DNA of 64,000 nucleotides from Chloroflexota bacterium (GTDB taxonomy: Bacteria; Chloroflexota; Limnocylindria; Limnocylindrales; CSP1-4), in NCBI GenBank assembly GCA_021783095.1, contig JAJXUG010000001.1, forward strand, positions 119,570 to 183,569, read 5' to 3'. Position numbers and translations under genes: made by a program. Every line of letters begins with the position of its first letter. Positions within the stretch are counted from its first letter, which is position 1. The notes beneath the pieces were generated by a model. The model searched no databases. It saw nothing but the letters and a program-made list of their open reading frames with translations, and had not been told where the DNA came from. This document shows positions 20,063-53,626 of the stretch, piece after piece.

Positions 20063-20362
20063 TCAGCTGCCGGTCCAGCCGGTGCCGGCCATCCAGGCCT
20101 TCCAGACGTCCGGGTGGGCGTCGACCCACTTCTTGGCGGCGTCGTCATCGGACATCTTGTTGGAGATGTCGGTGGCGACCGCGTTCTGGTCGTCGTTGGT
20201 CCACTTGAAGTTCTTGATGAAGGCGACGGCGGGGCTGCCGCTGTTCACGAACGTGGTGGACGCGACCTTGTTGAGGTTGTACGGCGGGTAGTCGCAGGTC
20301 ATCGACTTCGAGTTGCTGTCACAAAGGGGCGTCAGGCTCGTTGTGCAGACTGCGTTTGTCAT
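20063..20362 (-). CDS. 99-aa ORF encoding only an OpuAC-type (glycine betaine-binding SBP) internal helical segment: orphan fragment, possibly a gene remnant
   Basis: ...DYPPYNLNKVASTTFVNSGSPAVAFIKNFKWTNDDQNAVATDISNKMSDDDAAKKWVDAHPDVWKAWMAGTGW matches the OpuAC block ...AAKLLSQFKWTQDEMGEIM...[27 protein letters not shown]. Codon usage is genome-typical, and the ATG overlaps the iclR stop (ATGA). Confidence 0.5.
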   Translation of the reverse strand: MTNAVCTTSLTPLCDSNSKSMTCDYPPYNLNKVASTTFVNSGSPAVAFIKNFKWTNDDQNAVATDISNKMSDDDAAKKWVDAHPDVWKAWMAGTGWTGS

Positions 20363-21168
20363 GCCGTCCCCCTCCGGTCGCGCCAGCCGAGTCGGCGCCC
20401 GATCTCGTCGCCGGCCGCCATCACGGCCGCAGCGACGGCCTCGAACCGGTCCGGGCCCAGCCGATACGTGGGTCCCGAGACGCTCACGGCGGCCACCACG
20501 GCGCCGTCGTGGCCGCGGATGGGTGCGGCGATCGCGTTGAGCCCCACCTCGAGCTCCTCGGTCGTGGAGGCCCAGCCGGACGCCGCCGCGCGGGCCAGCT
20601 CACGCTCGAGGACCGAGCGGTTGGTGATGGTCGCCGGCGTGAAGCGCTCCAGCGGCCGTGCCAGCAGCCGGGCGCGCTCCGCGGGGTCCGCGCTGGCGAG
20701 CAGCACCTTGCCGCTCGAGGTGGCGTGGAGCGGCGTTCGCTGGCCCACCCAGTTCTGCGTGGCGACGGTGGCGCCTCCGAGCACCTGGTCCACGTTGACC
20801 ACAGCGTCGCCCTCAAGCCTGGCCACGTTCACCGTCTCCCCCACCTCGGCGGCGAGGCGCCGCGACACGGACCGGCTCTGTTCCACGAGGTCGAGCCGAC
20901 CCGCGGTGGCGCCAGCGAGCCTGACCAGCCCGAAGCCGAGCCGGTAGCGGCCGCGCTCGCTGACCTGCTCCACGAGGCCGCGAGCCTCGAGGACCGCCAG
21001 CAGCCGGTGCGCGGTGCTCTTGTGGACGCCCAGGGCCGCGGCGAGGTCGGTCACCGCCCCGTCCTCGCGCTCGGCGAGGTACTCGAGCACGTCGATGGCG
21101 CGGTCGACCGACTGGATGACGGCCGGCGACCCGATGACGGCGGCCGCCCCGCTTCGGCCCTCAGCCAT
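20359..21168 (-). CDS. IclR-family transcriptional regulator
   Basis: N-terminal wHTH (SVDRAIDVLEYLAEREDGAVTDLAAALGVHKSTAHRLLAVLEARGLV) and a C-terminal IclR effector domain (GLNAIAAPIRGHDGAVVAAVSVSGP). Confidence 0.85.
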   Translation of the reverse strand: MAEGRSGAAAVIGSPAVIQSVDRAIDVLEYLAEREDGAVTDLAAALGVHKSTAHRLLAVLEARGLVEQVSERGRYRLGFGLVRLAGATAGRLDLVEQSRSVSRRLAAEVGETVNVARLEGDAVVNVDQVLGGATVATQNWVGQRTPLHATSSGKVLLASADPAERARLLARPLERFTPATITNRSVLERELARAAASGWASTTEELEVGLNAIAAPIRGHDGAVVAAVSVSGPTYRLGPDRFEAVAAAVMAAGDEIGRRLGWRDRRGTA

Positions 21169-21550
21169 CGGTGGCTCCCGCTCCCCCGTCGACGCCGGGC
21201 GACATCGCGGCGAACGCCGCCATCAGCGCGGCGCGGGTGCCGCCGAAGGCTTCGGCTGCCTCGTCCGGGCTGGGGTCGGCCCGGCCGGCGAGATCGGGCT
21301 CGGTCCACACCCAGGTCGGGTGGTCGTGCGCCGCCAGCTGGCGGAAGCGCGGCGTCCAGACCTCCGCATCGACCGCGGCCAGGTGGACGACGATCCGGAC
21401 CGGCGTCCACCCGCCATCGTGTCCCGGCGCGGTCGCCGCGTCGCCCAGCCGGTGCACCATGGCGCCCGCCCACTCCGCCGCCTCGCGCAGCGCTGGCAGG
21501 AGGGCGGCGACCTCGGCCCTGGGACCGGGCACCGCGTCGGGCATCGTCAC
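21161..21550 (-). CDS. Small hypothetical protein (about 129 aa), weakly DinB/MDMPI-N-like, translationally wedged between the MttB-family gene and iclR
   Basis: GTG at 21550 overlaps the mttB-family stop (GTGA); an alternative ATG is at 21544. Its 3' end overlaps the iclR start by 8 nt. Coding-like codon bias, no recognisable motif. Confidence 0.4.
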   Translation of the reverse strand: MTMPDAVPGPRAEVAALLPALREAAEWAGAMVHRLGDAATAPGHDGGWTPVRIVVHLAAVDAEVWTPRFRQLAAHDHPTWVWTEPDLAGRADPSPDEAAEAFGGTRAALMAAFAAMSPGVDGGAGATDG

Positions 21551-23088
21551 TCCGCCGCGTCGGGCATCGACGCCTTGCGGCGCGCGACGAAGTCCAGCAG
21601 CGCCTCGTCCACCGCGGGGTCGATGGCCGGCGCCTCGTACTCGGCGAGCATCTTCTTCCAGACCCGGTTGGCCCGCGCCCGGGCGTCAAGCTCGCCGTCC
21701 TCGAGCCACTGCTCGTAGCTGTTGTTGTCGGCGATCTCGGAACGGTAGAACGCGGTCTCGAAGTTCGCCAGGGTGTGCGCCGTGCCCAGGAAGTGCTGCC
21801 CCGGGCCGTTCTCGCGGATGGCGTCGAGCGCCTGCCCGTTCTCGGACAGGTCCACGCCCTTGGCGAACACGCTCATCATCCCGAGCTGGTCCGCGTCCAT
21901 GACGAGCTTCTCGTAGCCGATCGTCAGGCCGCCCTCGAGCCAGCCGGCGGCGTGGAGGACGAAGTTGGTGCCGGCGAGGACCGTGGGCTGGAGCGTGGCC
22001 GCGGACTCGTAGGCCGCCTGCGCGTCCTCGATCTTCGACGCGGTCAGGCTGCCGCCGGAGCGGAACGGGACGCCGAGTCGGCGGGCGAGCGCGGCCATCG
22101 TGTACAGGACGAGCGCGGGCTCCGGGGTGCCGAACGTGGGCGCACCCGACTGCATCGACATCGAGCTCGCGAAGGAGCCGAGGATCACCGGCGCCCCGGG
22201 GCGCACCAGCTGGGCGAGCGTCATGCCTCCCAGCGCCTCGGCCAGCGTCTGCGCCGCCACGCCGGCGGAGGTCACCGGCGCCATCGCGCCGGCCAGGATG
22301 AACGGGGTGACGAGGCAGGCCTGGTTCGCCGCGGCGTAGGTGCGCAGCGAGCCCAGCATCGTGGCGTCCCAGACCAGCGGCGAGTTCGCGTTGATCAGGC
22401 TGGTGACGACCGCGTTCTGGTCGACGAAGTCCGCGCCGAACACGATCTTCGCCATCTCGACGGTGTCGGCGGCGCGCTCGGGCGCCGTGACCGAGCCCAT
22501 GAACGGCTTGTCCGAGTAGCGGATGTGGGCGTAGACCATGTCGAGGTGGCGCTTGTTGACGGCCACGTCGGTGGGCTCGCACACCGTGCCACCCGAGTGG
22601 TGCAGATGCGGCGAGGCGTAGGCGAGCTTGACGAAGTTCTCGAAGTCCTGGAGCGTCGCGTAGCGTCGGCCGCCGTCGAGGTCGCGCACGAACGGCGAGC
22701 CGTAGTTGGGCGCGAAGACCGTGTTCATCCCGCCGATCGTCACGCTGCGCTCAGGGTTCCGAGCGTGCTGCACGTAGGTGCGCGGGGCGCTCGCCTGGAC
22801 GATGGAGCGGCACAGCCCGGCCGGGAACCGGACGCGCTCGCCCTGGACATCTGCGCCGGCGCCGCGCAGCAGGCGCAGCGCCTCCGGGTCGCCGCGGAAC
22901 TCGAGGCCCACCTCCTGGAGGATCACGTCGGCGTTGTGCTCGATGAGCGAGAGGCCCTCCTCGGAGAGCACCTCGAACGGCGCCATGGTCCGGGTGAGGA
23001 ACGGGAGGCGTGCCACGGCGGCATGGGCGCGGGCCGCCTGCCGCCCGGCACGACCGCCGCTGCGGCGGTTGTGGAGATCGTCGGTCAT
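21547..23088 (-). CDS. MttB-superfamily (trimethylamine-methyltransferase-like) quaternary-amine:corrinoid methyltransferase, non-pyrrolysine type (MtgB/MtcB/MtpB-like)
   Basis: 513-aa TIM-barrel MttB family. The frame is continuous with no in-frame amber codon, so it is a non-Pyl member. ATG at 23088 lies 3 nt after a perfect AGGAGG (revcomp of ttcctcctcg at 23091-23100). The 1031-aa ORF is an over-extension. Confidence 0.85.
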   Translation of the reverse strand: MTDDLHNRRSGGRAGRQAARAHAAVARLPFLTRTMAPFEVLSEEGLSLIEHNADVILQEVGLEFRGDPEALRLLRGAGADVQGERVRFPAGLCRSIVQASAPRTYVQHARNPERSVTIGGMNTVFAPNYGSPFVRDLDGGRRYATLQDFENFVKLAYASPHLHHSGGTVCEPTDVAVNKRHLDMVYAHIRYSDKPFMGSVTAPERAADTVEMAKIVFGADFVDQNAVVTSLINANSPLVWDATMLGSLRTYAAANQACLVTPFILAGAMAPVTSAGVAAQTLAEALGGMTLAQLVRPGAPVILGSFASSMSMQSGAPTFGTPEPALVLYTMAALARRLGVPFRSGGSLTASKIEDAQAAYESAATLQPTVLAGTNFVLHAAGWLEGGLTIGYEKLVMDADQLGMMSVFAKGVDLSENGQALDAIRENGPGQHFLGTAHTLANFETAFYRSEIADNNSYEQWLEDGELDARARANRVWKKMLAEYEAPAIDPAVDEALLDFVARRKASMPDAAE

Positions 23089-25124
23089 CGTTCCTCCTCG
23101 TCGGCGGCGACGGGCTGGCGCCGCCGACGTCGTTCCGTTCGCTCGTCCCAGCCCGCGCGGCCCGCCACCGGCCGTGCCGGCAATTCGACGACTCGCGCCA
23201 GGTTCGGGTATTCGGCACTGCGGTGCGGGATCGCCAGCGCGTCGACGAAGTGCTCCTGGAATCGGGGCTCGATCGCGGTCTCGAGCTTGTGGACCTCGCG
23301 CACGACGGTCTCGATCTCGCGGCGGGCGGCGCCCGACAGCAGCGCGATGAGGGCCCCGGCGCCCGCAGCGTTGCCCACCGAGCGGACGCGCGCGAGGTCG
23401 CAGTCGGGCACCAGGCCCAGCACCATGGCATGGGTCGTGTCGATGTGGCTGCCGAAAGCGCCCGCGAGGCGGACCTCGTCCACCGCGTCCACGCCGTAGG
23501 CGTCCATCAGCAGCCGGGCGCCAGCGTAGAGGGCTGCCTTCGCGAGCTGGACGGCCCGCACGTCGCTCTGGGTGACCACGACGCACGGCTCGCCCTCGTG
23601 GAGGACATAGGCGAAGGTGCGCCCGTCGGGGATCACGCGCTGCGTGCGGGCTGCCAGCGCCCCGTCGATGATCCCGTCCGCGGTGATGACGCCCGCGAGG
23701 AACAGCTCGGCGATCACCTCGATGATCCCCGAGCCGCAGATGCCGGTGATCCCGGTGCCGGCCGTGGCCTCGGCGAAGCCGGGCTCGTCGGACCACAGCG
23801 CCGAGCCGATGACGCGGAAGCGCGGCTCGAGGGTGTCGCGGTCGATGCGGACGCGCTCGACGGCGCCGGGCGCGGCGCGCTGGCCGGACGAGATCTGCGC
23901 GCCCTCGAAGGCGGGGCCGGTGGGGCTCGAGGCGGCGAGCAGGCGGTGCCGGTTGCCCAGCACGAGCTCCGCGTTGGTCCCCACGTCCACGATGAGCGTG
24001 ACGGCCTCGGCGAGGTGCGGCTGCTCGGAGAGGATGACGCCGGCCGTGTCGGCGCCGACGTGCCCGGCGATGCAGGGCAGGACGTAGACGCGGGCCCCGG
24101 GGTGGACGCCGAGCTTGAGCTCGGCGGCGGTGGCGTGGACCGCGCGCTCCGTCGCCAGCGTGAACGGCGCCTGGCCGAGCGGCGTCGGGTCGAGGCCCAG
24201 CACGAGGTGGTGCATGATCGGGTTGCCGACCAGCGCGATCTCGAGGATCTCGTCGCGCGCCACGCCGGCCGCGATGGCCAGGCTGCCGATGAGGTCGCGC
24301 AGCGCCGTCCGGACCGCGGCGGTCATCTCGGCCGCGCCCCGCTCGTGGAGCATCGCGTACGAGACGCGGCTCATCAGGTCCTCGCCGAACCTGATCTGCG
24401 GGTTCATCACGCCGGCCGAGGCCAGCACCGACCCGTCGAGCAGGCTGGCCAGGTGGGCGGCAATCGTGGTCGACCCGATGTCCACCGCCACGCCGTACGC
24501 GCGGTCGCGGAAGCCCGGCCACGCGGCGATCAGCGTCCGCCCGTCGTGGACCGCGACCGTCACCTTGCCGCCGCCGCTCTCGACCGCGGCCTGGAGCGCG
24601 CGCGTCGCCGCGAGGTCCGCACCGAGGTCGTGGATCCCCCACTCGCGGGCCAGCGCCTCCTGCACCCGGGCGAGGTCCGAGGCCGGCGAAGCCAGGTCCG
24701 GCAGGGCGGCCTCGACGTAGTGGAGCCGGGTGACCGGGTCGAGGTCGAACGGGCGGACCTCGAGCTCCTTGCGCACCACCTGGCGGTGGACCTGGGAGCT
24801 GGCCGGCACGTCGATGACCGCGTCGCCCAGCAGCTCGGCCGTGCAGGCGAGCCGGCGCCTGGGCGCCAGGCCCTTGCGCGCCGCGTAGTCGGCCTCCACC
24901 GCGTCGGGCGCCGAGATGTGCGCCGGATCCGAGGCGATGCCGTGCTTGGGGAACGCGCCGACGCTCTGCTCCACCTGGCAGCGGCCGCAGATGCCCCGGC
25001 CGCCGCAGACCGAATCGATGTCCACGCCCAGCTTCCGGGCCGCGTCGAGCACGGTCGTGCCCGCGGGGAAGTGCCCCCGGCGGCCCGAGGGCGTGAAGAT
25101 CAGCAGGGGATCGGGCGATCCCAC
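23085..25124 (-). CDS. Corrinoid reductive activase (RACo-type: N-terminal plant-type [2Fe-2S] ferredoxin plus ASKHA ATPase/DUF4445)
   Basis: CGGRGICGRCQV...C ferredoxin cysteine pattern at the N-terminus. Large ASKHA-fold C-terminal domain with VDIGSTTIAAHL and VDVGTNAELVLG phosphate loops. Its stop overlaps the MttB start (ATGA at 23085-23088). Confidence 0.85.
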   Translation of the reverse strand: MGSPDPLLIFTPSGRRGHFPAGTTVLDAARKLGVDIDSVCGGRGICGRCQVEQSVGAFPKHGIASDPAHISAPDAVEADYAARKGLAPRRRLACTAELLGDAVIDVPASSQVHRQVVRKELEVRPFDLDPVTRLHYVEAALPDLASPASDLARVQEALAREWGIHDLGADLAATRALQAAVESGGGKVTVAVHDGRTLIAAWPGFRDRAYGVAVDIGSTTIAAHLASLLDGSVLASAGVMNPQIRFGEDLMSRVSYAMLHERGAAEMTAAVRTALRDLIGSLAIAAGVARDEILEIALVGNPIMHHLVLGLDPTPLGQAPFTLATERAVHATAAELKLGVHPGARVYVLPCIAGHVGADTAGVILSEQPHLAEAVTLIVDVGTNAELVLGNRHRLLAASSPTGPAFEGAQISSGQRAAPGAVERVRIDRDTLEPRFRVIGSALWSDEPGFAEATAGTGITGICGSGIIEVIAELFLAGVITADGIIDGALAARTQRVIPDGRTFAYVLHEGEPCVVVTQSDVRAVQLAKAALYAGARLLMDAYGVDAVDEVRLAGAFGSHIDTTHAMVLGLVPDCDLARVRSVGNAAGAGALIALLSGAARREIETVVREVHKLETAIEPRFQEHFVDALAIPHRSAEYPNLARVVELPARPVAGRAGWDERTERRRRRQPVAADEEER

Positions 25125-25139: not shown

Positions 25140-26057
25140 TCAGCCGGCGGTGACCGCGGCACCCGCCCGGCGCCGGTTGACGCGCCGCTCGCGGCCGTCG
25201 GCCGCCTCGCCGGTGGGATCCCGGTTGGCGCGGATCCAGGCGGCGGCGTCGGCGTCGTTGCCGAGTAGCACGTCGGCGGCCATGATCGATTTGCGCACGT
25301 CGGGCAGCAGCGGGTTGGTGATCGCCGAGGTCAGGCCGTTGCTGATGGCCATGGCCAGGAACGCCGAGTTGACCCCCTCGCGGGCCGGCAGGCCGAAGCT
25401 GACGTTCGAGGCGCCGCAGGTGGTGTTCACCTTGAGCTCGTCGCGCAGCCGGTTGAGCAGGGCGAACACCTGGCGGCCGGCGGTGCGCATGGCGCCGATG
25501 GGCATGACCAGCGGGTCCACGATCACGTCCTCGCGCGGGATGCCGTGGTCGGCGGCGCGCTCGACGATCCGCTTGGCCACCGCGAACCGCACGTCCGGGT
25601 CGGTCGAGATGCCCGTGTCGTCGTTGGAGATGGCGACCACTGCCGCGCCGTACTTGCGGACCAGCGGCAGGACGCGCTCCATGCGCTCCTCCTCGCCGGT
25701 CACCGAGTTGACCAGCGCCTTGCCCTGGTAGACCGAGAGTCCCGCCTCGAGCGCGTCCATGACCGACGAGTCGATCGACAGCGGCAGGTCGGTCAGCGAC
25801 TGGACCAGCTTGACCGTGCGGGCGAGGATCCCGGGCTCGTCCGCGAGCGGGATGCCCGCGTTGACGTCGAGCATGTGGGCGCCGGCCTCGACCTGGGCGA
25901 TGACGTCGCGCTCGACCCGGCTGAAGTCGCCGTTGCGCATCTCCTCGCCCAGGAGCTTGCGCCCGGTGGGGTTGATCCGCTCGCCGATGACCACGAACGG
26001 GAGGTCACCGCTGATGACCACCTCGCGGGTCGCCGAGCTGATGACGGTGCGGGTCAT
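25140..26057 (-). CDS. Pterin-binding (DHPS-like TIM barrel) methyl-corrinoid:tetrahydrofolate methyltransferase (MtgA/MtqA/AcsE-like MT2)
   Basis: FVVIGERINPTG...DVNAG...LSIDS...ALVNSV...ISND pterin-binding domain pattern (PF00809-like), 305 aa. Overlaps the upstream DUF1638 gene by 4 nt. Confidence 0.8.
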   Translation of the reverse strand: MTRTVISSATREVVISGDLPFVVIGERINPTGRKLLGEEMRNGDFSRVERDVIAQVEAGAHMLDVNAGIPLADEPGILARTVKLVQSLTDLPLSIDSSVMDALEAGLSVYQGKALVNSVTGEEERMERVLPLVRKYGAAVVAISNDDTGISTDPDVRFAVAKRIVERAADHGIPREDVIVDPLVMPIGAMRTAGRQVFALLNRLRDELKVNTTCGASNVSFGLPAREGVNSAFLAMAISNGLTSAITNPLLPDVRKSIMAADVLLGNDADAAAWIRANRDPTGEAADGRERRVNRRRAGAAVTAG

Positions 26058-27576: not shown

Positions 27577-27946
27577 TGGCTCCTGCCGGTGACGCTGTGT
27601 AGCGGATGGCGCAACGAGTTGCGGATTGCGCAACGGACAATAGACGAGAGCCGCGGCTCTGTCCAGACGGTATCGCGCTGCGGGCGGTCGCTGGGTGCGC
27701 GAGCCGGACGATCCGGGCGTCGGTTCGATCGCGCTGGCGTCGCCGGGATCCTCCGCATCGCGCGCCGCTCCCGATCGGATCCTCCAGATCGCCTCCGGGG
27801 GGCGCTTCGCCCCGTCGGCCAGATTGGCGGGCGCCTGCTCGTGCGTGAGCCGGCCGACGCTGGCGCCCATATCGCCTGCCGGGGGCGATTTGGCGGGATT
27901 CGCTTGGCTAAGCGCCGCCGAGAGGCGAAATGGCGGGGGCGGTGCG

Positions 27947-28777: not shown

Positions 28778-28804
28778 ACTGTTGACAGAAAGATTGTCAA
28801 CAGT
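28778..28804. promoter_or_regulatory. Perfect 10-7-10 inverted repeat ACTGTTGACA-gaaagat-TGTCAACAGT in the gntR/dmgO divergent promoter region (candidate GntR operator; contains TTGACA)
   Basis: Exact inverted repeat in an AT-richer stretch between gntR (start 28724) and the DMGO-like gene (start 28996). Flanked by direct repeats GATTGAC/GATTGTC. Confidence 0.5.
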
Positions 28805-32291: not shown

Positions 32292-32293
32292 CC

Positions 32294-34798: not shown

Positions 34799-34864
34799 CG
34801 CCATCCGAGCAACAAGTGGGGGCCGGCATCGCGCCGGCCCCCACTGCACCTAGAGCGAGGCCCC

Positions 34865-36326: not shown

Positions 36327-36335
36327 GGCAGACCG

Positions 36336-48594: not shown

Positions 48595-49200
48595 CTAGGA
48601 CACGGGCCGGAGGGTGGCCCGCGCGGTCTCCAGCATCAGCCTCCGCAGCTGCTCCGCGTCGACCCCCGGTGCCTGCAGCGCGAGGCCAACCGATGCGCCG
48701 TCCCCGAGCATGATGAACAGGTCCACGATGTCGTCGACCCGCGACACGGGGTCGAACACGCCTGCTTCGATCCCCTCCTCGATCACTTCCCGGAACGGCG
48801 GGCGCCACGCGTCATAGAAGCGGTCCATCTTGGCGCGGAGGTCGTCATCGCGGGCCATGGCGCAGAACTCGATCCAGATGCGGGAACGCGACAGGGCGGG
48901 CTCCGGGAGCGAGGCGTAGAGGAGCGTCACCAGCCTCGACCAGGCGTCGCCATCCCTGGGGAGGGCCTCGGTCCATGAGCGCAGGCGCCGCTCGGCCGAC
49001 CAGTCGAAGAGCTCGGCGATCAACCGGTCGCGCGAGTCGAAGTAGTGCTGGACGGTGCCGATCGAAACGCCTGCGGCCTCGGCCACATCGCGGAGGCGGC
49101 TGCGCTCGACGCCGTGGCTGACGAGCAGTGCTTCGGCGGCGGACAGGATGCGCTCGCGCTGCGCCTCCCGCTGCGCCTCGTTCCGGGGCCGACCGGCCAC
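48595..49200 (-). CDS. TetR-family regulator, BetI-like
   Basis: HTH VSIGTVQHYFDSRDRLIAELF and IWIEFCAMARDDD resemble E. coli BetI (TGIISHYFRDKNGLLEATM; AWLAFWASSMHQP). An AT-rich islet (atttgtaatacgagattatggcataa, 49216-49245) lies just upstream. Confidence 0.8.
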   Translation of the reverse strand: MAGRPRNEAQREAQRERILSAAEALLVSHGVERSRLRDVAEAAGVSIGTVQHYFDSRDRLIAELFDWSAERRLRSWTEALPRDGDAWSRLVTLLYASLPEPALSRSRIWIEFCAMARDDDLRAKMDRFYDAWRPPFREVIEEGIEAGVFDPVSRVDDIVDLFIMLGDGASVGLALQAPGVDAEQLRRLMLETARATLRPVS

Positions 49201-49285: not shown

Positions 49286-49540
49286 TCAGCCCCGGCGCCC
49301 GCGGATGGACGGGTGGTGCGGGAGCAGGTTGTGGGCGCCACACTGGGGACAGCCCACCCAGGACAGCCGGGAACCCCACAGCAGCTCCACCAGCCCGCGG
49401 CGGAAGCGCGCCCCGCAGGAGCCGCAGGTGACCTCCCAGCGGCTGATCAGCCCCAGGTTCCCGGGGAGCCAGCCGACCTGGACGGGGTCGATCCCCTCAA
49501 CCTCGACGGGGACGAGGCGGCGGTCCTGACCGGCTGGCAT
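49286..49540 (-). CDS. Small (84 aa) zinc-ribbon protein, hypothetical
   Basis: Two Cys pairs (CGSCG and CPQCG) about 22 aa apart. Strong SD GGAGGAGG in front of ATG 49540. The ORF from 49909 is over-extended. Confidence 0.5.
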   Translation of the reverse strand: MPAGQDRRLVPVEVEGIDPVQVGWLPGNLGLISRWEVTCGSCGARFRRGLVELLWGSRLSWVGCPQCGAHNLLPHHPSIRGRRG

Positions 49541-49554: not shown

Positions 49555-50475
49555 TCAGCTCCCCGACGGTGCGGCTGATCCGGACGCCGGGGCGGGCGAT
49601 GCGGAGCCGGAGGCTGCCGCGACGGCGGCCGCGATGTCGGCGAATGTCGCGTTCACGAAGGTGCCGTTCACGAGCACTGAGGGTGTCCCGTGGCCGGCGA
49701 CGGAGGCCGGCAGGCTCTGCTGCTCGGCCGCGATCTCGGCGTTGTGCGTCCCGTTCTGGAGGCAGGACGTGTAGCTCGTCATGTCCAGGCCCGCCGCCTG
49801 GCCGATCTTGAGCAGCCGGTCCATGGTGAACACGGACGCCGCCTCGCTCGTCTGGTTGGCGTACAGGTAGTCGTGCATGACCCAGAACTTGTTCTGGTCG
49901 GCGGCGCACCAGGCGGCGTTCGCGGCGTCACGTGACGCGTGCGACCCGTCGCCGTCGATGACCGTGAAGTCGTGCCAGACGAGCTTCGCCTTGCCGGTCG
50001 CGATGAGCTGGGTTTCGACCTGCCTGGCGGTGCCGCCCTCGGTGAACGAGTAGCAGGCCGAGCAGCGGAAGTCGGCGTACAGGTCGATCGTGACCGGGGC
50101 GTTGGGGTCGCCGAGCGTGCGGCCGCTGGAGGGGATCGAGGCCGGAGTCGAGTTGGCGGCCCCGGGCGCGATCACGGCGGCGCTGTCGACGACGGCCGGG
50201 CTGGAGCCCAGCTGCTGGATCGCGACGTAGGCCACGATCAGCACGCCCACGATGACGGCACCGATGGTGATCATCGCCGTGCGGCTCATTCTCGACGACG
50301 ACCTCGATGCGCTCACGCGGTTCGGCTGCCAGGGCTCGCCCGACTTCCGGCCCGCGGGGCGCTGGCCGGCGGGGCGCTGGCCGGCGGGCCGGTTCGACGG
50401 TGCCGACGACGCAGAGGGCGCCGGGGTCGCGGGACGGTTCGCGGCGCGATTGCTGCCGCGTGACTGCTTGGCCAT
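49555..50475 (-). CDS. DsbA-family thiol:disulfide oxidoreductase, membrane-anchored
   Basis: N-terminal TM (MITIGAVIVGVLIVAYVAI), thioredoxin active site CSACY and a Ser/Ala/Pro-rich tail. GAGGAG precedes ATG 50475. Confidence 0.75.
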   Translation of the reverse strand: MAKQSRGSNRAANRPATPAPSASSAPSNRPAGQRPAGQRPAGRKSGEPWQPNRVSASRSSSRMSRTAMITIGAVIVGVLIVAYVAIQQLGSSPAVVDSAAVIAPGAANSTPASIPSSGRTLGDPNAPVTIDLYADFRCSACYSFTEGGTARQVETQLIATGKAKLVWHDFTVIDGDGSHASRDAANAAWCAADQNKFWVMHDYLYANQTSEAASVFTMDRLLKIGQAAGLDMTSYTSCLQNGTHNAEIAAEQQSLPASVAGHGTPSVLVNGTFVNATFADIAAAVAAASGSASPAPASGSAAPSGS

Positions 50476-50483: not shown

Positions 50484-51932
50484 CTAGCCCAGGTTGATGA
50501 CGACGGTCTTGAGCTCGGTCAGCCGCTCCATCGAGAAGCGGCCGCCGACGCGACCCACGCCGCTGTCGGCGCCGGCGCCGCCGCCGAACGGGAGGTGCGA
50601 CTCCCAGTAGTTCGTGCCCTCGTTGATATTGACCCATCCGGTCCGAACCGACTCCGCGAACCGGAGGCCGCGCGCGAGGTCGCGCGTGAAGATACCTGCC
50701 AGCAGCCCGAACGGCGAGTCGTTGACGATTCTGAGCGCGTCGGCTTCGGATTCGATGACAGTGATCGGCGCCACGGGCCCGAACGTCTCGTCGCGGGCGA
50801 TCTCCATCGCGTCGGTGACGCCGTCGAGCACGGTGGGCTCGTAGAACAGCCGCGTCGCGAAGTCGGGCGCGCGCCGCCCGCCGGCAACCACGCGGGCCCC
50901 CTGGCCGATGGCGTCCTGGACGTGGCGGTCGGTCTTCGCTGCCTGCGCCTCGTTGTTGACCGGGCCCATCGTGGTGGCCTCGTCGCACGGGTCGCCGAGG
51001 CGGATGCGGGCGGCCACGGCGGCGGTCAGCTTCTCGACGTAGGCGTCGTGCACCGACGCCTGCACCAGGATCCGCTCCCCGGCCGTGCAGCTCTGCCCGG
51101 CGTTGAGGAAGCAGGCCGTCAGCGTCGCCTCGACGGCCTTGTCGAGGTCGGCGTCGTCGAGCACCACCAGCGGCCCGTTGCCGCCCAGCTCCAGGAGCAC
51201 GTCCTTGCCGACGGCCCGGGTGCCAACCTTCTTGCCCGCCTCGACCGAGCCCACGAAGCCCACCGCGCCCACGTCGCGATGGCCAGCGATCTCGTCGCCC
51301 ACCACGGAGCCCGGCCCGGTGACCAGGTTGAACACGCCTGCCGGCAGTCCCGCGTCGGCGAAGCAGCGCGCCATCTCGACCGAGCAGGCGGACGTGTTCG
51401 ACGCGGGGTTCCACACGACCGCGTTCCCGGCCGCGAGCGCCGGGGCGATGATCTCGCCGGCCATCGTGTAGGGCCAGTTCCAGGGCGTGATCACCGACAC
51501 GACGCCGCGCGGCACGCGGTAGACGAGGACGCGCTTCGCCGCGTCAACCGACGGCAGGATCAGCCCCTCGATCCGGGTCGCGTCCGCCGCGGCCATCTTG
51601 AAGTAGGCCAGCAGCTCCTCAACCTCGCCCCGGGCCTCGGTGATTGGCTTGCCCTGGTCGCGGCGGAGGGCCTGCGCCATCACCTCTCGGCGCTCCACGA
51701 CGAGCGCGCCAACCCGCTCAAGCGCGGCCGCCCGCTCGAAGGCGGACAGCCTGGCCCAGGCGGCCTGGGCGGCCTTCGCGGCGGCGATCGCGCGGCGCGC
51801 GTCCTCGCGCGAGCCCTTCGGGATCGAGGCGAAGGCCTCGCCCGTCGCGGGGTTGACGGCGTCGAACGTCTCGCCGGTCTCGGCGGCGCACCACGCGCCG
51901 TCGATGAACATGGCCAACTGCTCGGCCTCCAT
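50484..51932 (-). CDS. NAD(P)-dependent aldehyde dehydrogenase (betaine-aldehyde dehydrogenase by context)
   Basis: ALDH family: ELGGNGP, catalytic Cys in FLNAGQSCTAGERIL, and the glutamate/NAD-binding regions. GGAGGAGG precedes ATG 51932. Confidence 0.9.
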   Translation of the reverse strand: MEAEQLAMFIDGAWCAAETGETFDAVNPATGEAFASIPKGSREDARRAIAAAKAAQAAWARLSAFERAAALERVGALVVERREVMAQALRRDQGKPITEARGEVEELLAYFKMAAADATRIEGLILPSVDAAKRVLVYRVPRGVVSVITPWNWPYTMAGEIIAPALAAGNAVVWNPASNTSACSVEMARCFADAGLPAGVFNLVTGPGSVVGDEIAGHRDVGAVGFVGSVEAGKKVGTRAVGKDVLLELGGNGPLVVLDDADLDKAVEATLTACFLNAGQSCTAGERILVQASVHDAYVEKLTAAVAARIRLGDPCDEATTMGPVNNEAQAAKTDRHVQDAIGQGARVVAGGRRAPDFATRLFYEPTVLDGVTDAMEIARDETFGPVAPITVIESEADALRIVNDSPFGLLAGIFTRDLARGLRFAESVRTGWVNINEGTNYWESHLPFGGGAGADSGVGRVGGRFSMERLTELKTVVINLG

Positions 51933-51961
51933 TGCGCCCTCCTCCGATTCGCCGTGCCGTC

Positions 51962-53626
51962 TCAGGCAGGCGTGTGCCGGTAGAACTCGGTGCGCTCCGG
52001 AGCCAGCGGGGTGTTGCCCAGGATGAGGTCGGCCGCCTTCTCGGCGAGCATCATCACCGGTGCATAGATGTTGCCGTTGGTCACGTACGGCATCGCGGAC
52101 GCGTCGACGACCTTGAGGCCCTCGACGCCGTGGACGCCCATCGTGACCGGGTCCAGCACGCTCATGTCGTCGGTGCCCATGCGGGCGGTGCACGACGGGT
52201 GCAGTGCCGTCTCGCCGTCCCTGCCGACCCAGTCGAGGATCTCCGCGTCCGTCGACACCTTCGGCCCGGGCGAGGTCTCGCCCTTGTTGAACGGCTCGAA
52301 TGCCTTCTGATTGAGGATGTCGCGCGCCACGTGGATCGCCTCGACCCACTCCCGGCGGTCCTGATCGGTGGAGAGGTAGTTGAACCGCATCGCCGGGTGG
52401 ACGGTGGGGTCGGTGCTCTTGATCTTGATCGTGCCGCGGGCGTCCGAGTACATCGGCCCGACGTGGACCTGGTACCCGTGGCCGCCCTCGGGCTTGCTGC
52501 CGTCGTAGCGGATCGCCAGCGGCAGGAAGTGGAACATCAGGTTCGGGTAGGCCACCTCCTCGTTGGACCGGACGAAGCCGCCGGCCTCGAAGTGGTTGGT
52601 GGCCCCGGGCCCCGTGCGCAGGAACAGCCACTGGAAGCCGATCCACGGGCGGCGCCACGTCTGGAGCGCGGGTTGCATCGACACCGGCAGCTTCGAGCCG
52701 TACTGGACGTAGACCTCGAGGTGGTCCTGGAGGTGCTCGCCCACGCCCTTTACGTCAGCGACGGGGCTGATGCCGAGGGCCTTGAGCTCGTCGGCGTTGC
52801 CCACGCCCGAGAGCTGGAGGAGCTGCGGCGAGTTGATCGACCCGCCGGCCAGGACCACCGTGCCGGCGCGCGCCACGTGGCGCTCGTCGCCGCCCTTGCC
52901 GGTCGTGTACTCGACGCCCACCGCCCGCTTGCCCTCGAACAGGACCTTCGTGACGAAGGCGCGGGTCTTGACGGCGAGGTTCTTCCGGTCCATCACCGGA
53001 TGCAGGTACGCGCGGGATGCGGACAGCCGGCGGGCGTTCTTGATGTTCCGGTCGAACGGCGCGAAGCCCTCCTGACGGAACCCGTTGACGTCCTCGGTCA
53101 GCGGGTAGCCCGCCTGCTGGACGGCCTCGAAGAAGGCGCCGAAGAGCGGGCTGCTGGCTGGGCCGCGCTCGAGGTGGAGCGGGCCGGAGTGGCCGCGCCA
53201 GGGGTCCTTGAGGTCCGCCGCGGTGCACGACTCCATGCGGCGGAAGTACGGCAGGCAGTGGGCGTAGTCCCAGGTGTCCATGCCCTGGTCGCCCGCCCAG
53301 CGCTCGTAGTCCATCGGGTTGCCCCGCTGGAAGATCATCCCGTTGATCGACGAGCTGCCGCCGAGGATCTTGCCGCGGGCGTGGTAGATCCGCCGGTTGT
53401 GCATGAACGGCTCGGGCTCCGACTCGTACTTCCAGTCGTAGTACTTCGAGCCGATCGGGAACGTCAGCGCGGCCGGCATGTGGACGAAGACGTCGAACAG
53501 GTAGTCCGGACGCCCCGCCTCGAGCACCAGTACCTTCGTGCCCGGCTCCGCGCTCAGCCGATTGGCGAGCACCGAGCCCGCGGAGCCGCCCCCGACGATG
53601 ACGAAGTCGTACTGCGTGCTTGCCAT
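51962..53626 (-). CDS. betA: Choline dehydrogenase (GMC oxidoreductase)
   Basis: [23 protein letters not shown] fingerprint and the GMC signatures GGSSSINGM and C-terminal HPSCTARMG. 554 aa from MASTQYDF (53626). Confidence 0.9.

What the first reader, a model, noticed from the sequence alone, without database searches (positions are those of the whole stretch)
20063..53626. A 33-kb island assembling the entire choline to glycine pathway, mixing oxidative (flavoprotein/ETF) and corrinoid/THF-dependent demethylation steps
Within one contiguous region I find:
- betA (51962-53626) and an aldehyde dehydrogenase (50484-51932) under a BetI-like TetR (48595-49200), taking choline to glycine betaine;
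- the MttB/corrinoid module for betaine demethylation;
- four paralogous DMGDH/DMGO-family enzymes (28996-31524 on plus; 40817-43333, 43413-45827 and 45876-48365 in tandem on minus), taking dimethylglycine to sarcosine to glycine and generating 5,10-methylene-THF;
- etfBA (31527-33256) as the electron acceptor;
- a DadA-like FAD oxidase (38474-39712);
- a five-gene HAAT ABC importer (33452-38422);
- three dedicated regulators (IclR, GntR and TetR/BetI-like).

Two THF-dependent C1 outputs (methyl-THF from MT2, methylene-THF from the DMGDH paralogues) are produced by neighbouring operons. Four paralogues where two would suffice implies extra N-methyl substrates or redox-partner specialisation (an oxidase versus ETF-linked dehydrogenases).
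Basis: partly seen in the sequence, partly recalled or inferred. Interest (0 to 1): 0.75.

Follow-up and report, generated by a model that had tools for sequence, protein, structure and literature searches.

The report
Choline-to-glycine catabolic gene cluster
This is a real, conserved chromosomal gene cluster in an uncultured soil or sediment Chloroflexota bacterium that most likely breaks choline and glycine betaine down to glycine, using a vitamin-B12-dependent first demethylation followed by flavoprotein steps, a pathway design first published in 2025 for marine bacteria.

Summary

The region (20063-53767) encodes:
- BetA, an aldehyde dehydrogenase, a DsbA-like protein and a TetR regulator;
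- three tandem DMGDH-family enzymes plus a fourth in an operon with etfBA;
- a HAAT-type ABC importer and a DadA/glycine-oxidase-like flavoenzyme;
- GntR and IclR regulators;
- a five-gene corrinoid operon: corrinoid protein, DUF1638, methyl-THF methyltransferase, RACo-type activase and a non-pyrrolysine MttB.

The clustering is not fortuitous. The corrinoid operon keeps its gene order across at least five phyla and recurrently sits next to the DMGO-like/etfBA operon, betA and opuA. Close relatives (Candidatus Limnocylindrales MAGs) carry the cluster at the same chromosomal site. It is therefore a stable locus, not a mobile island.

The design, B12-dependent MtgBCD demethylation followed by oxidative steps, was published for aerobic marine Proteobacteria (Mausz et al. 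2025). This is a new member of a known kind.

New details found here:
- the opuA betaine importer is deleted, leaving a remnant;
- a close relative has only two of the four paralogues at this locus;
- the four paralogues fall into three ancient clades;
- the TetR travels with one paralogue, not with betA.

Interest is about 0.3.

The parts
20063..20362 (-). Remnant (last ~80-99 codons) of an OpuAC-type glycine-betaine-binding protein gene. The rest of the opuA importer is deleted.
   Evidence: Pfam OpuAC matches only profile positions 198-256. The ORF is 70-74% identical to the C-terminus of full-length OpuAC genes at the syntenic position in L167/L168, where opuAA-opuAB-opuAC lie between IclR and the M23 peptidase.
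20359..21168 (-). IclR-family regulator, the last intact gene of the corrinoid operon
   Evidence: HTH_IclR + IclR_C. The best NCBIfam match is BhcR at 194 bits, below the 350 cut-off. An IclR gene is adjacent to the MttB operon in 34 of 80 loci.
21161..21550 (-). 129-aa ORF with weak DinB_2 similarity; uncertain gene. It is absent at this position in the closest relatives.
   Evidence: GC3 0.91. DinB_2 E=6e-4, below the gathering score. Only partial homologues were found in other Limnocylindrales loci. L167/L168 have a 55-bp MttB-IclR gap here.
21547..23088 (-). Non-pyrrolysine MttB-superfamily methyltransferase: a predicted glycine betaine:corrinoid methyltransferase (MtgB-like, MT1)
   Evidence: PF06253 766 bits. 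The Pyl-type TIGR02369 model scores 269, below its 525 cut-off, and the ORF has no internal stop. PDB: 4yyc 743 bits; D. hafniense MtgB 2qne/9yce 425 bits. Of the betaine-binding residues, Y97/R312/H348 are conserved as Y129/R343/H379, and F356 is replaced by G387 with W383 nearby. The pattern Y-R-H-W-G is invariant in 88 orthologues.
23085..25124 (-). RACo-type ATP-dependent reductive activase of the corrinoid protein (N-terminal 2Fe-2S plus ASKHA domain)
   Evidence: Fer2 + RACo_linker + Raco_middle + RACo_C_ter. AcsV model 352 bits, below its 800 cut-off. It is conserved next to MttB in 58 of 80 loci.
25140..26057 (-). Methylcorrinoid:tetrahydrofolate methyltransferase (MT2, MtgD-like)
   Evidence: Pterin_bind 102 bits. 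NF005719, methyl-THF:corrinoid methyltransferase, 353 bits against a cut-off of 259.
26054..26902 (-). DUF1638 protein (implicated in cobalamin reactivation), fused in frame to the decayed remnant of a PF13769 small gene
   Evidence: DUF1638 95 bits. Relatives have separate DUF1638 (224-259 aa) and PF13769 (116 aa) genes. The window C-terminus aligns to residues 16-40 of the L167 PF13769 protein, and by eye its last ~30 residues resemble that protein's C-terminal tail.
26899..27576 (-). Corrinoid (B12-binding) protein, MtgC-like, 225 aa
   Evidence: B12-binding_2 + B12-binding. The start was fixed by alignment to relatives, and the DxHxxG motif reads 'GDIHDIG'. The MtgC_2 model scores 203, below its 370 cut-off. 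It is 75% identical to the Paracoccus methylovorus orthologue.
27599..27634 (-). Two tandem GTTGCG-N5-CGCAAC inverted repeats just upstream of the corrinoid operon: a candidate operator/promoter region
   Evidence: Only the ~100 nt upstream of the corrinoid-protein gene are conserved with L002/L167/L168. The repeat arms are conserved while the spacers vary. Function is inferred.
28047..28724 (-). GntR/FCD-family regulator, divergent from the DMG1-etfBA operon
   Evidence: GntR + FCD. The same position is kept in L002, L164/L167 and L168.
28780..28802 (.). Perfect palindrome TGTTGACA-N7-TGTCAACA in the GntR/DMG1 divergent intergenic region: a candidate GntR operator overlapping a TTGACA -35-like box
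   Evidence: Unique in the window (0.04 expected by chance). The arms are conserved and the spacer varies at the same place in L168 and L167/L164. Function is inferred.
28996..31524 (+). DMG1: DMGO-like FAD/THF-dependent N-methyl amine dehydrogenase, first gene of an operon with etfBA
   Evidence: DAO+FAO_M+GCV_T+GCV_T_C. Best PDB match is A. globiformis dimethylglycine oxidase 1pj5 at 502 bits, against 306 for human DMGDH. A 2-bp gap separates it from etfB. DMG1+etfBA lies next to the MttB operon in about 21 of 80 loci.
31527..33256 (+). etfB (31527-32291) and etfA (32294-33256): electron-transfer flavoprotein
   Evidence: ETF and ETF_alpha domains. The genes have 2-bp spacings.
33452..38422 (+). 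Five-gene HAAT-family ABC importer (binding protein, two ATPases, two permeases); substrate unknown
   Evidence: Peripla_BP_6, ABC_tran x2 and BPD_transp_2 x2. Only remote PDB matches to LIV-binding proteins. It is conserved between etfA and DMG4 in relative L164, whose contig also carries opuA (L167).
38453..39712 (+). DadA/glycine-oxidase-like FAD enzyme (the public gene call starts at 38474)
   Evidence: DAO 192 bits. DadA subfamily 226 bits, below its 383 cut-off. The closest solved structures are glycine oxidases at 74 bits or less. The gene is absent from relative L164.
39819..40820 (-). CBS-pair + BON domain protein (the public gene call is shorter, 39819-40526); role unknown, accessory
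   Evidence: CBS x2 + BON. Found only in near-identical contigs.
40817..43333 (-). DMG2: second DMGO-like paralogue (53% identical to DMG1)
   Evidence: Absent from relative L164 and present in L085.
43413..45827 (-). DMG3: paralogue closest to mammalian dimethylglycine dehydrogenase
   Evidence: PDB: 5l46 583 bits against DMGO 302 bits. It is paired with a DMG4-type gene in 36 of 80 metagenome loci.
45876..48365 (-). DMG4: third clade of the family (sarcosine/DMG dehydrogenase-like). It is kept in relative L164 and usually preceded by the TetR.
   Evidence: PDB: DMGDH 450 bits, DMGO 394 bits. Homologues carry inconsistent automatic names. Context.
48595..49200 (-). TetR-family regulator with a BetI-type C-terminal domain, linked to DMG4 in relatives
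   Evidence: TetR_N + TetR_C_6. The BetI equivalog model scores 44, below its 201 cut-off. TetR is directly upstream of DMG4 in L084, L087, L098, L165 and L166.
49286..49540 (-). 84-aa ORF with two CxxC pairs (zinc-ribbon-like), absent from relative L164
   Evidence: A gene is called here in the public collection. The sequence was read. No family was assigned.
49555..50475 (-). DsbA-like thioredoxin-fold protein in the betA-ALDH operon
   Evidence: Thioredoxin_4 87 bits. Conserved after the ALDH in L164 at 61% identity.
50484..51932 (-). Aldehyde dehydrogenase, predicted betaine-aldehyde dehydrogenase by context only
   Evidence: Aldedh 511 bits. The BADH model TIGR01804 scores 393, below its 669 cut-off, and several other ALDH models score equally well. 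Adjacent to betA here and in L164.
51962..53626 (-). BetA choline dehydrogenase (the longest ORF runs to 53767)
   Evidence: TIGR01810 betA equivalog 814 bits against a cut-off of 732.

Best explanation
The cluster is a chromosomal catabolic locus of a Candidatus Limnocylindrales (Chloroflexota) bacterium that converts choline and glycine betaine to glycine.

Proposed steps:
1. **Choline to betaine.** BetA oxidises choline to betaine aldehyde, and the adjacent aldehyde dehydrogenase oxidises that to glycine betaine.
2. **First demethylation (B12-dependent).** The MttB-family enzyme (MtgB-like) transfers one betaine methyl group to the Co(I) corrinoid protein, yielding dimethylglycine. The pterin-binding methyltransferase passes the methyl group on to tetrahydrofolate. 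The RACo-type activase and DUF1638 re-reduce corrinoid that has been oxidised to Co(II).
3. **Second and third demethylations (flavoprotein).** Dimethylglycine and then sarcosine are oxidatively demethylated by FAD/THF-dependent DMGDH-family enzymes. These release 5,10-methylene-THF and glycine and pass electrons to EtfBA, at least for DMG1, which shares an operon with etfBA.
4. **Regulation and uptake.** The GntR, IclR and TetR regulators each control their adjacent operons. The HAAT importer takes up a pathway substrate.

What is shown here: gene content, family membership, operon structure and conserved linkage. What is inferred: the substrates, the direction of flux, the ETF coupling and the operator sites. 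The inference rests on family knowledge and on the Ruegeria pomeroyi MtgBCD work.
For: **Family assignments**
- BetA is above its equivalog cut-off, MT2 is above the NF005719 cut-off, and MttB is a non-Pyl PF06253 member.
- The corrinoid protein carries the DxHxxG motif.
- Three of the four experimentally defined betaine-binding residues of D. hafniense MtgB are conserved (PMC13080624). The residue pattern is invariant in 88 orthologues and absent from 21 divergent paralogues.

**Operon structure**
- The corrinoid operon genes overlap by 4-8 bp or lie up to 15 bp apart, and DMG1-etfB-etfA have 2-bp gaps.

**Conserved linkage**
- The corrinoid operon keeps its order in about 50 of 80 genomes from Chloroflexota, Actinomycetota, Acidobacteriota, Alpha- and Gammaproteobacteria.
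- It neighbours DMG1+etfBA in about 21 of the 80 and betA in 11.
- A full opuA betaine importer lies at the syntenic position in L167 and L168.
- Relative contig Ga0130016_10000016 carries betA-ALDH-Trx-DMG4-ABC-etfAB-DMG1-GntR-corrinoid operon-IclR-opuA between the same flanking genes.

**Link to the characterised system**
- The orthologous operon in cultured aerobic Paracoccus methylovorus (MttB 69%, corrinoid protein 75% identical) also contains metF.
- Mausz et al. 2025 showed that mtgC and mtgD are required for growth on betaine in aerobic R. pomeroyi. RamA and DUF1638 proteins were induced, and the downstream demethylation genes are often colocated.
Against: - No member of this particular MttB clade (the 4yyc type, Y-R-H-W-G) has been assayed. 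One of the four betaine-binding residues (F356) is not conserved in the alignment.
- In R. pomeroyi the genetic proof is for mtgC and mtgD, not for an individual mtgB.
- The ALDH fails the BADH equivalog cut-off.
- None of the 50 window proteins scanned has an MTHFR, FolD or PurU domain, so the fate of methyl-THF is not encoded here.
- The dedicated betaine importer is deleted in this genome, and the substrate of the HAAT importer is unknown.
- Sequence cannot settle which paralogue acts on dimethylglycine and which on sarcosine.
Confidence: 0.75

Rival explanations
1. The MttB/corrinoid module demethylates a quaternary or tertiary amine other than glycine betaine (for example proline betaine, carnitine, gamma-butyrobetaine, choline or trimethylamine). 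The neighbouring DMGDH-family enzymes would then act on that product, not on dimethylglycine.
For: - MttB-superfamily members have diverse substrates (PMC12478193 discussion; PMC13080624).
- F356 of MtgB aligns to G387 here.
- The closest solved structure, 4yyc, is only a 'putative trimethylamine methyltransferase'.
- Both NCBIfam MtgC models score below their cut-offs.
Against: - Y97, R312 and H348 equivalents are conserved, and an invariant Trp lies four residues after the His.
- BetA, which makes betaine, and OpuAC-type betaine-binding proteins recur next to this operon.
- There is no pyrrolysine codon, which argues against trimethylamine.
[quoted passage not shown] Here one of the pair is kept and the other is plausibly substituted.
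Confidence: 0.12
2. The corrinoid protein and the pterin methyltransferase serve mainly as a split cobalamin-dependent methionine synthase (anabolic direction), and their position beside the catabolic genes is secondary.
For: [quoted passage not shown]
Against: - No homocysteine-binding (MtgE / S-methyltransferase) gene was found among the 50 window proteins scanned.
- The two genes are translationally coupled in one operon with MttB.
- That operon is linked to betA, DMGDH and opuA genes across phyla.
- A dual role cannot be excluded, because the rest of the genome is not in the window.
Confidence: 0.05
3. The accessory segment (TetR, DMG4, DMG3, DMG2, CBS-BON and the DAO enzyme, possibly with the HAAT importer) is a separate module. 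It would act on other N-methylated amino compounds, such as N-methyl amino acids, 4-methylaminobutanoate or demethylation products of other betaines, and would not be redundant dimethylglycine/sarcosine capacity.
For: - The paralogues form three clades only 31-34% identical to each other.
- A close relative has only DMG1 and DMG4 at this locus.
- In another relative, TetR-DMG4-(divergent MttB)-DMG3-etfBA-IclR-DMG2 form their own cluster.
- Divergent MttB paralogues that lack the betaine-binding residues sit directly upstream of DMG3 orthologues in about 17 metagenome loci.
- JGI automatic names for DMG4 homologues include 4-methylaminobutanoate oxidase.
Against: - DMG3 is the paralogue closest to bona fide mammalian DMGDH.
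- The DMG3-DMG4 pair is widely conserved, as expected for a dimethylglycine plus sarcosine enzyme pair.
- Orthologous MtgB-type MttB genes lie next to DMG3-DMG4 in five loci.
- The automatic names are inconsistent with each other.
Confidence: 0.35
4. The clustering is fortuitous, or an assembly chimera of unrelated genes.
For: The window comes from a metagenome assembly.
Against: - The same arrangement appears on independent assemblies from other samples, on contigs of 213-773 kb.
- Gene order is conserved across phyla.
- G+C content is uniform across the region.
Confidence: 0.02

Closest known systems
Aerobic cobalamin-dependent glycine betaine demethylase MtgBCD with RamA and DUF1638 (Ruegeria pomeroyi DSS-3; Mausz et al. 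2025, PNAS, PMC12478193)
   Same: - The component set is the same: PF06253 MttB-family MT1, a small corrinoid protein, a pterin-binding MT2, an ASKHA reductive activase and DUF1638.
- The host is also an aerobe.
- The genes for the later demethylation steps are colocated, as that paper reports for marine Alpha-, Gamma- and Deltaproteobacteria.
- The orthologous operon in the rhodobacteral Paracoccus methylovorus is 49-75% identical, protein by protein.
   Different: - Here all five genes form one tight operon, whereas they are scattered in R. pomeroyi.
- The host is Chloroflexota (Limnocylindrales) from a non-marine lineage, which that study does not mention.
- No mtgE or metF2 lies nearby in the window.
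- The downstream enzymes are four DMGDH-family paralogues plus ETF.
- No direct sequence comparison with the SPO proteins was possible.
Anaerobic MtgB/MtgC system of Desulfitobacterium hafniense (Ticak et al. 2014 [from memory, not retrieved]; active site in Picking et al. 2026, PMC13080624)
   Same: - TIM-barrel MttB-superfamily enzyme without pyrrolysine, 425 bits to 2qne/9yce.
- Y97, R312 and H348 equivalents are conserved.
- It also uses a corrinoid protein with an activase.
   Different: - Similarity is much lower than to 4yyc (425 against 743 bits).
- F356 is replaced (G387, with W383 nearby).
- The corrinoid protein scores below both NCBIfam MtgC cut-offs.
- The context is an aerobic respiratory host with oxidative follow-up steps, not anaerobic respiration or acetogenesis.
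Arthrobacter globiformis dimethylglycine oxidase (DMGO, PDB 1pj5) and mammalian dimethylglycine/sarcosine dehydrogenases (PDB 5l46, 4paa)
   Same: - The four-domain architecture is the same (DAO, FAO_M, GCV_T, GCV_T_C).
- The His that carries covalent FAD in this family is conserved in all four paralogues (role of this His recalled from the DMGO/DMGDH literature, not checked here).
- DMG1 and DMG2 are closest to DMGO, and DMG3 is closest to DMGDH.
   Different: - DMG1 is DMGO-like but shares an operon with etfBA in many phyla. This implies a dehydrogenase that uses ETF rather than an O2-using oxidase (inference).
- DMG4 is intermediate between the two references.
Classical aerobic betaine catabolism: GbcAB Rieske monooxygenase plus DgcAB plus SoxBDAG (Pseudomonas) or BHMT (SAR11)
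   Same: The overall route is the same, choline -> betaine -> dimethylglycine -> sarcosine -> glycine, and betA with an aldehyde dehydrogenase performs the first two steps.
   Different: - No Rieske, DgcAB, SoxBDAG or BHMT-type domains were found among the 50 window proteins scanned.
- The first demethylation is a B12/THF-dependent methyl transfer that conserves the methyl group as methyl-THF instead of releasing formaldehyde.

Membership tests
MtgB (glycine betaine:corrinoid methyltransferase, MttB superfamily) | PF06253 TIM-barrel domain over the full length | tested here: met
   766 bits, residues 9-509 against profile positions 1-500.
MtgB (glycine betaine:corrinoid methyltransferase, MttB superfamily) | No pyrrolysine (no in-frame UAG); not the Pyl-type trimethylamine enzyme | tested here: met
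   Uninterrupted 513-codon ORF. TIGR02369 scores 269, below its 525 cut-off. Only 106 bits to the Pyl MttB structure 7xcl.
MtgB (glycine betaine:corrinoid methyltransferase, MttB superfamily) | The four betaine-binding residues of D. hafniense MtgB (Y97, R312, H348, F356) | tested here: inconclusive
   Y129, R343 and H379 are conserved. F356 aligns to G387, and an invariant W383 lies in the same loop. Whether W383 completes the aromatic cage was not tested, because no coordinates were available.
MtgB (glycine betaine:corrinoid methyltransferase, MttB superfamily) | [quoted passage not shown] | not testable with these tools
   This needs an enzyme assay.
Aerobic MtgBCD system (Mausz et al. 2025) | Small corrinoid protein (MtgC) with B12-binding_2 + B12-binding domains and the DxHxxG motif | tested here: met
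   Pfam domains. 225 aa with 'GDIHDIG'.
Aerobic MtgBCD system (Mausz et al. 2025) | Pterin-binding methyltransferase (MtgD) | tested here: met
   PF00809. NF005719 353 bits against a cut-off of 259.
Aerobic MtgBCD system (Mausz et al. 2025) | Associated reductive reactivation proteins (RamA-like ASKHA activase and DUF1638) | tested here: met
   RACo domains plus Fer2, and DUF1638. Both are in the operon in 47-58 of 80 loci.
Aerobic MtgBCD system (Mausz et al. 2025) | Orthology to the R. pomeroyi proteins (SPO2160, SPO1863, SPO2108/2134) | not tested
A proxy is the 49-75% identity to the operon of the rhodobacteral Paracoccus methylovorus.
Aerobic MtgBCD system (Mausz et al. 2025) | Dual role with MtgE as a split methionine synthase | not testable with these tools
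   No MtgE-type domain was found among the 50 window proteins scanned. The rest of the genome was not seen.
BetA choline dehydrogenase | Score above the TIGR01810 equivalog cut-off | tested here: met
   814 bits against 732.
BetB betaine-aldehyde dehydrogenase | Score above the TIGR01804 / PRK13252 equivalog cut-offs | tested here: not met
   393 bits against 669, and 381 against 593. Several other ALDH models score equally well. The assignment rests on adjacency to betA only.
BetI choline-responsive repressor | Score above the TIGR03384 equivalog cut-off, and linkage to betA | tested here: not met
   44 bits against 201. In relatives the TetR is linked to DMG4, and betA occurs without it in L164. 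Only the TetR_C_6 domain type is shared.
Dimethylglycine oxidase/dehydrogenase-sarcosine dehydrogenase family | DAO + FAO_M + GCV_T + GCV_T_C architecture, with the conserved His for covalent FAD | tested here: met
   All four paralogues have it. Full-length matches to 1pj5, 5l46 and 4paa.
Dimethylglycine oxidase/dehydrogenase-sarcosine dehydrogenase family | Substrate (dimethylglycine versus sarcosine versus other N-methyl amines) and electron acceptor (O2 versus ETF) | not testable with these tools
   Only context is available: DMG1 shares an operon with etfBA.
Genomic (horizontally acquired) island | Deviant composition, tRNA or integrase borders, and absence from the same site in relatives | tested here: not met
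   G+C is 67-75% across the region, much like the flanks. No tRNA. No mobile-element domains were found in the cluster. Relatives have the same flanking genes.

The most novel reading that the evidence does not exclude
Three linked readings remain open.
1. The DMGO-like clade (DMG1/DMG2) may be ETF-coupled dehydrogenases rather than oxidases.
2. The variable TetR-DMG4-DMG3-DMG2-DAO segment, with the HAAT importer, may extend the locus to N-methylated compounds other than dimethylglycine and sarcosine. These could be the products of the still uncharacterised MttB paralogues seen next to DMG3 orthologues elsewhere.
3. Together with the very wide spread of the 4yyc-type operon (at least 595 species-level genomes), this would make B12-dependent betaine demethylation a major route of osmolyte turnover in soil and sediment Chloroflexota, Actinomycetota and Acidobacteriota. 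That route has so far been documented only for marine Proteobacteria.
Probability: 0.3. Interest if true: 0.5.

Novelty: new member of a known kind. Interest (0 to 1): 0.3.

Why it matters
- **Wider reach of a recent pathway.** If the prediction holds, the recently described aerobic B12-dependent route of glycine betaine demethylation extends from marine Proteobacteria to abundant uncultured soil and sediment lineages (Limnocylindrales, Acidimicrobiia, Gaiellales, Acidobacteriota). That would tie betaine and choline turnover, and the C1 and ammonium it releases, to cobalamin availability in those habitats.
- **Annotation correction.** It also matters for metagenome annotation. These genes are routinely labelled 'trimethylamine methyltransferase' and read as markers of anaerobic methylotrophy (for example PMC11264602). 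Here the context points to aerobic osmolyte catabolism.
- **A compact test case.** The single-locus arrangement gives a convenient set of genes for heterologous reconstitution of the whole pathway.

Tried and rejected
- **Riboswitch upstream of the corrinoid operon.** I looked in the long GntR-to-corrinoid-protein spacer (27577-28046). Rfam at gathering score found only a malK-III RNA elsewhere. The permissive search found only a sub-threshold sRNA-Xcc1 hit inside the GntR gene. Only the last ~100 nt of the spacer are conserved in relatives. The riboswitch idea was dropped.
- **Mobile island.** No tRNA genes, no compositional shift and the same flanks in relatives. Rejected.
- **Actinomycete origin.** This was suggested by the 72% G+C. 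It was rejected after the closest homologues and syntenic contigs proved to be Candidatus Limnocylindrales / CSP1-4 Chloroflexota.
- **Naming DMG4 from database labels.** The labels are inconsistent ('sarcosine oxidase gamma subunit', '4-methylaminobutanoate oxidase', 'GcvT family protein').
- **Naming DMG4 from its Paracoccus denitrificans orthologue.** That neighbourhood was uninformative.
- **Substrate of the HAAT binding protein.** Solved structures gave only remote LIV-binding matches.
- **Literature on DMGO-like enzymes with ETF in bacteria, and on this pathway in Limnocylindria.** The searches found nothing specific.
- **Structure prediction of MttB.** I did not run it to test whether W383 replaces F356, because model coordinates cannot be inspected with the available tools.

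Full report
**1. Checking the observation**

The window is 67-75% G+C throughout, so raw ORF lists are swamped by spurious frames. A third-position G+C filter gives a clean, nearly gap-free gene map.

- **BetA** (51962-53626, or 53767 for the longest ORF) exceeds the TIGR01810 equivalog cut-off (814 against 732 bits).
- **Aldehyde dehydrogenase** (50484-51932).
- **TetR** (48595-49200), with the BetI-type C-terminal domain.
- **Four full-length DAO+FAO_M+GCV_T+GCV_T_C proteins**: DMG1 28996-31524(+), DMG2 40817-43333(-), DMG3 43413-45827(-), DMG4 45876-48365(-).
- **etfB/etfA** (31527-33256).
- **Five-gene HAAT ABC system** (33452-38422).
- **DadA-like flavoenzyme** (38453/38474-39712).
- **IclR** (20359-21168) and **GntR/FCD** (28047-28724).
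- **Corrinoid operon** on the minus strand: corrinoid protein, DUF1638, pterin-binding methyltransferase, RACo-type activase and MttB.

- a CBS-BON protein (39819-40820);
- a DsbA-like thioredoxin (49555-50475);
- an 84-aa CxxC protein (49286-49540);
- a weak DinB_2-like ORF (21161-21550);
- at the left edge, a 99-codon ORF (20063-20362) that matches only the last quarter of the OpuAC profile.

**2. Where the window comes from**

An identical MttB is on public metagenome and MAG contigs of up to 213 kb. A 97% identical protein is labelled Candidatus Limnocylindrales, and an 83% one is from 'Chloroflexi bacterium CSP1-4'. The best genome matches are all Limnocylindrales or 'uncultured Chloroflexia' MAGs. 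DMG4 homologues say the same. The host is therefore a high-G+C Chloroflexota (Limnocylindria) bacterium, not an actinomycete.

**3. Is the clustering meaningful?**

*MttB scan.* I scanned one genome per species with MttB. At least 595 genomes encode a relative, and the best 80 are 69-85% identical. They span Chloroflexota, Actinomycetota (Acidimicrobiia, Gaiellales), Acidobacteriota, and Alpha-, Beta- and Gammaproteobacteria.

*Neighbourhoods in those 80 loci.* Searching them with the window's proteins shows:
- the order corrinoid protein-DUF1638-MT2-activase-MttB in about 50 of 80;
- an IclR gene next to it in 34;
- a DMG1-type gene with etfB-etfA in about 21;
- betA in 11.

L002 reproduces etfA-etfB-DMG1-GntR-corrinoid operon-IclR at 65-88% identity.

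*Close relatives at the same site.* Two close relatives on very long contigs give the whole picture. In JGI contig Ga0130016_10000016 (372 kb) the order is:

HAD hydrolase - adenosine deaminase - epimerase - M17 - A24 - betA - ALDH - DsbA-like - DMG4 - HAAT ABC - etfAB - DMG1 - GntR - corrinoid operon - IclR - opuAA - opuAB - opuAC - M23 peptidase - GlgC-like - YbjN.

The flanks on both sides are the same genes as in the window. The cluster is therefore a stable chromosomal locus of this lineage. With the flat G+C profile and no tRNA, nothing marks it as a mobile island.

**4. What differs in this genome**

Compared with those relatives, the window shows losses and gains.

*Losses:*
- It has lost the opuA betaine importer. 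The ORF at 20063-20362 is 70-74% identical to the C-terminus of the relatives' full-length OpuAC and abuts the IclR stop codon.
- It has lost most of a small PF13769 gene. Its remains are fused in frame to DUF1638.

*Gains:*
- It carries a TetR and a CxxC ORF between the DsbA-like gene and DMG4.
- It carries DMG3, DMG2, CBS-BON and the DAO enzyme between DMG4 and the ABC genes (compare).

**5. The corrinoid module**

*The MttB enzyme.* MttB has no in-frame stop and fails the pyrrolysine-type model. Its closest solved structure is 4yyc, a 'putative trimethylamine methyltransferase' (743 bits). Next comes D. hafniense MtgB (2qne, and the betaine-bound 9yce; 425 bits). The true Pyl MttB scores only 106 bits.

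*Betaine-binding residues.* Picking et al. 2026 defined these residues by mutagenesis and a liganded structure: Y97 and F356 form cation-pi contacts, and R312 and H348 hold the carboxylate. Mapping through the alignment gives Y129, R343 and H379 conserved. F356 aligns to G387, with a Trp (W383) four residues after the His. All 88 orthologues at 65% identity or more in the fetched loci carry exactly Y-R-H-W-G. The 21 divergent paralogues (below 40% identity) carry none of these residues. Three of four residues are thus met, and the fourth is undecided.

*The other components.*
- The corrinoid protein starts at 27576 (225 aa) and has the DxHxxG motif.
- MT2 exceeds the cut-off of the methyl-THF:corrinoid methyltransferase model.
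- The activase has the 2Fe-2S plus ASKHA architecture of RACo.
- Adjacent genes in the operon overlap by 4-8 bp or lie up to 15 bp apart.

*Cultured aerobes.* The same operon is found in Paracoccus methylovorus, P. aminovorans, Sinorhizobium, Shinella and Azoarcus KH32C at 66-70% MttB identity. In P. methylovorus the operon also contains metF.

**6. Comparison with what is known**

Mausz et al. 2025 (PMC12478193) worked on aerobic Ruegeria pomeroyi. They showed that a corrinoid protein (MtgC) and a pterin-binding methyltransferase (MtgD) are required for growth on betaine. PF06253 proteins (MtgB), a RamA-like activase and a DUF1638 protein were induced by betaine, choline and carnitine. They also report that in marine Alpha-, Gamma- and Deltaproteobacteria the genes for the later demethylation steps are often colocated with mtgBCD.

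That paper does not mention Chloroflexota or ETF, and it reports only 5% of ocean mtgC reads as Actinomycetota. A floodplain MAG survey noted mttB/mtgB genes in Limnocylindria but discussed them under anaerobic methylotrophy. The present cluster is therefore a new, unusually compact member of a known kind.

**7. The four paralogues**

*Relationships.* They are not recent duplicates. DMG1 and DMG2 are 53% identical, and every other pair is 31-34%. All four keep the conserved His that, from prior knowledge of DMGO/DMGDH, carries covalent FAD.

*Closest references.*

| Paralogue | Best solved match | Other reference |
|---|---|---|
| DMG1 | A. globiformis DMGO, 502 bits | human DMGDH, 306 bits |
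| DMG3 | mammalian DMGDH, 583 bits | DMGO, 302 bits |
| DMG4 | DMGDH, 450 bits | DMGO, 394 bits |

DMG2 shares 53% identity and the same sequence motifs with DMG1. The automatic names of DMG4 homologues are contradictory.

*Context.*
- DMG1 has 2-bp junctions with etfBA. This three-gene unit is the one most often found beside the corrinoid operon. A DMGO-like enzyme probably works here as an ETF-linked dehydrogenase (inference).
- DMG3 and DMG4 orthologues are adjacent in 36 of 80 metagenome loci, down to 56% identity.
- The TetR sits directly upstream of DMG4 in five relatives.
- The close relative L164 has only DMG1 and DMG4 at this locus.
- In L165 a separate cluster reads TetR-DMG4-(divergent MttB)-DMG3-etfBA-IclR-DMG2.

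*Reading.* I take DMG1+ETF and DMG4 to be the core pair, and DMG2, DMG3, the DAO enzyme and CBS-BON to be an accessory block. Sequence cannot say which enzyme takes dimethylglycine and which takes sarcosine. It also cannot say whether the accessory enzymes take other N-methyl amines.

**8. Regulation**

- The TetR fails the BetI equivalog model (44 against 201 bits) and follows DMG4, not betA. 'betA under BetI' is not supported.
- The divergent GntR/DMG1 intergenic region holds a perfect palindrome, TGTTGACA-N7-TGTCAACA, at 28780-28802. It is unique in the window. Its arms are conserved and its spacer is free in L168 and L167/L164.
- Two tandem GTTGCG-N5-CGCAAC repeats (27599-27634) lie just upstream of the corrinoid-protein gene and are conserved in L002, L167 and L168.
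- Both sites are candidate operators, by inference only.
- No riboswitch was found.

**9. Gaps in the pathway as encoded here**

- None of the 50 window proteins scanned carries an MTHFR, FolD, PurU, GlyA or homocysteine-methyltransferase domain. The oxidation of methyl-THF and any link to methionine synthesis must be encoded elsewhere.
- The dedicated betaine importer is deleted.
- The HAAT importer is conserved in a relative that also has opuA. It is therefore not a simple replacement, and its ligand is unknown.
- The ALDH is assigned to betaine aldehyde by position only.
- The DAO enzyme is nearest to glycine oxidases and DadA, but only weakly.

**10. Verdict**

The pathway design is already in the literature, so the finding is a new member of a known kind.

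The most useful new points are:
- the taxonomic and ecological reach of the 4yyc-type operon;
- the DMGO-like/ETF operon;
- the variable accessory paralogues;
- the local decay of opuA.

Interest is 0.3. The most novel reading still open is an accessory module for other N-methyl compounds, plus a major B12-dependent betaine sink in soils. I give it a probability of about 0.3.

Noticed in passing
window 20063-20362 (-): This is the C-terminal remnant of an OpuAC betaine-binding protein gene, abutting the IclR stop codon. Relatives L167 and L168 have intact opuAA-opuAB-opuAC here, so this genome has deleted about 4 kb of a betaine ABC importer.
   Followed up: yes
window 26054-26902 (-); L167 6701-7051; L168 6696-7046: Relatives carry a separate 116-aa PF13769 ('Virulence_fact') gene between DUF1638 and MT2. 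In the window only fragments survive, fused in frame to the end of DUF1638. In Paracoccus methylovorus, an 'MTHFR C-terminal domain' gene plus metF occupy the equivalent position.
   Followed up: partly
L105, L107, L109, L114, L116, L123, L124, L130, L135-L137, L153, L154 and others; also L165 12712-14055: A divergent MttB-family paralogue (24-31% identical to the window MttB) sits immediately upstream of DMG3 orthologues in about 17 mostly marine metagenome loci and in one Limnocylindrales relative. It lacks all the betaine-binding residues. This may be an uncharacterised methyltransferase/DMGDH-like pair.
   Followed up: partly
window ~27940-28015: Four tandem copies of a ~19-bp unit (GCGGCGCGGAGCCCGCACG) lie in the non-conserved part of the 470-bp spacer between GntR and the corrinoid-protein gene. 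The repeat is absent from relatives.
   Followed up: partly
window 8113-8215 (+): A malK-III RNA motif (RF03009, 75.5 bits against a gathering score of 50) lies directly upstream of a MalK-like ABC ATPase gene (8213-9313). It is the only Rfam hit in the window.
   Followed up: no
window 49555-50475 (-) and 49286-49540 (-): A DsbA-like thioredoxin-fold protein is co-operonic with betA and the ALDH, and it is conserved in relative L164 at 61% identity. It is followed by an 84-aa double-CxxC ORF that L164 lacks. Neither has an obvious role in choline oxidation.
   Followed up: partly
window 11644-14259 (-), 14256-16370 (-), 56469-57476 (-): Three sizeable ORFs with high GC3 (871, 704 and 335 aa) have no Pfam match at E<=1e-5. 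The first two overlap by 4 bp and precede a YbjN-like gene. A homologous large ORF follows YbjN in L167 and L168.
   Followed up: no
window 48480-48520 and 49215-49250: AT-rich patches in otherwise 70% G+C DNA lie upstream of DMG4 and upstream of the TetR gene. Examples are 'ATAACATCGCAATATTACGAATTC' and 'GATTTGTAATACGAGATTATGGCATAAC'. They share TA(A/T)TACGA-like elements and may be TetR operators or promoters.
   Followed up: no
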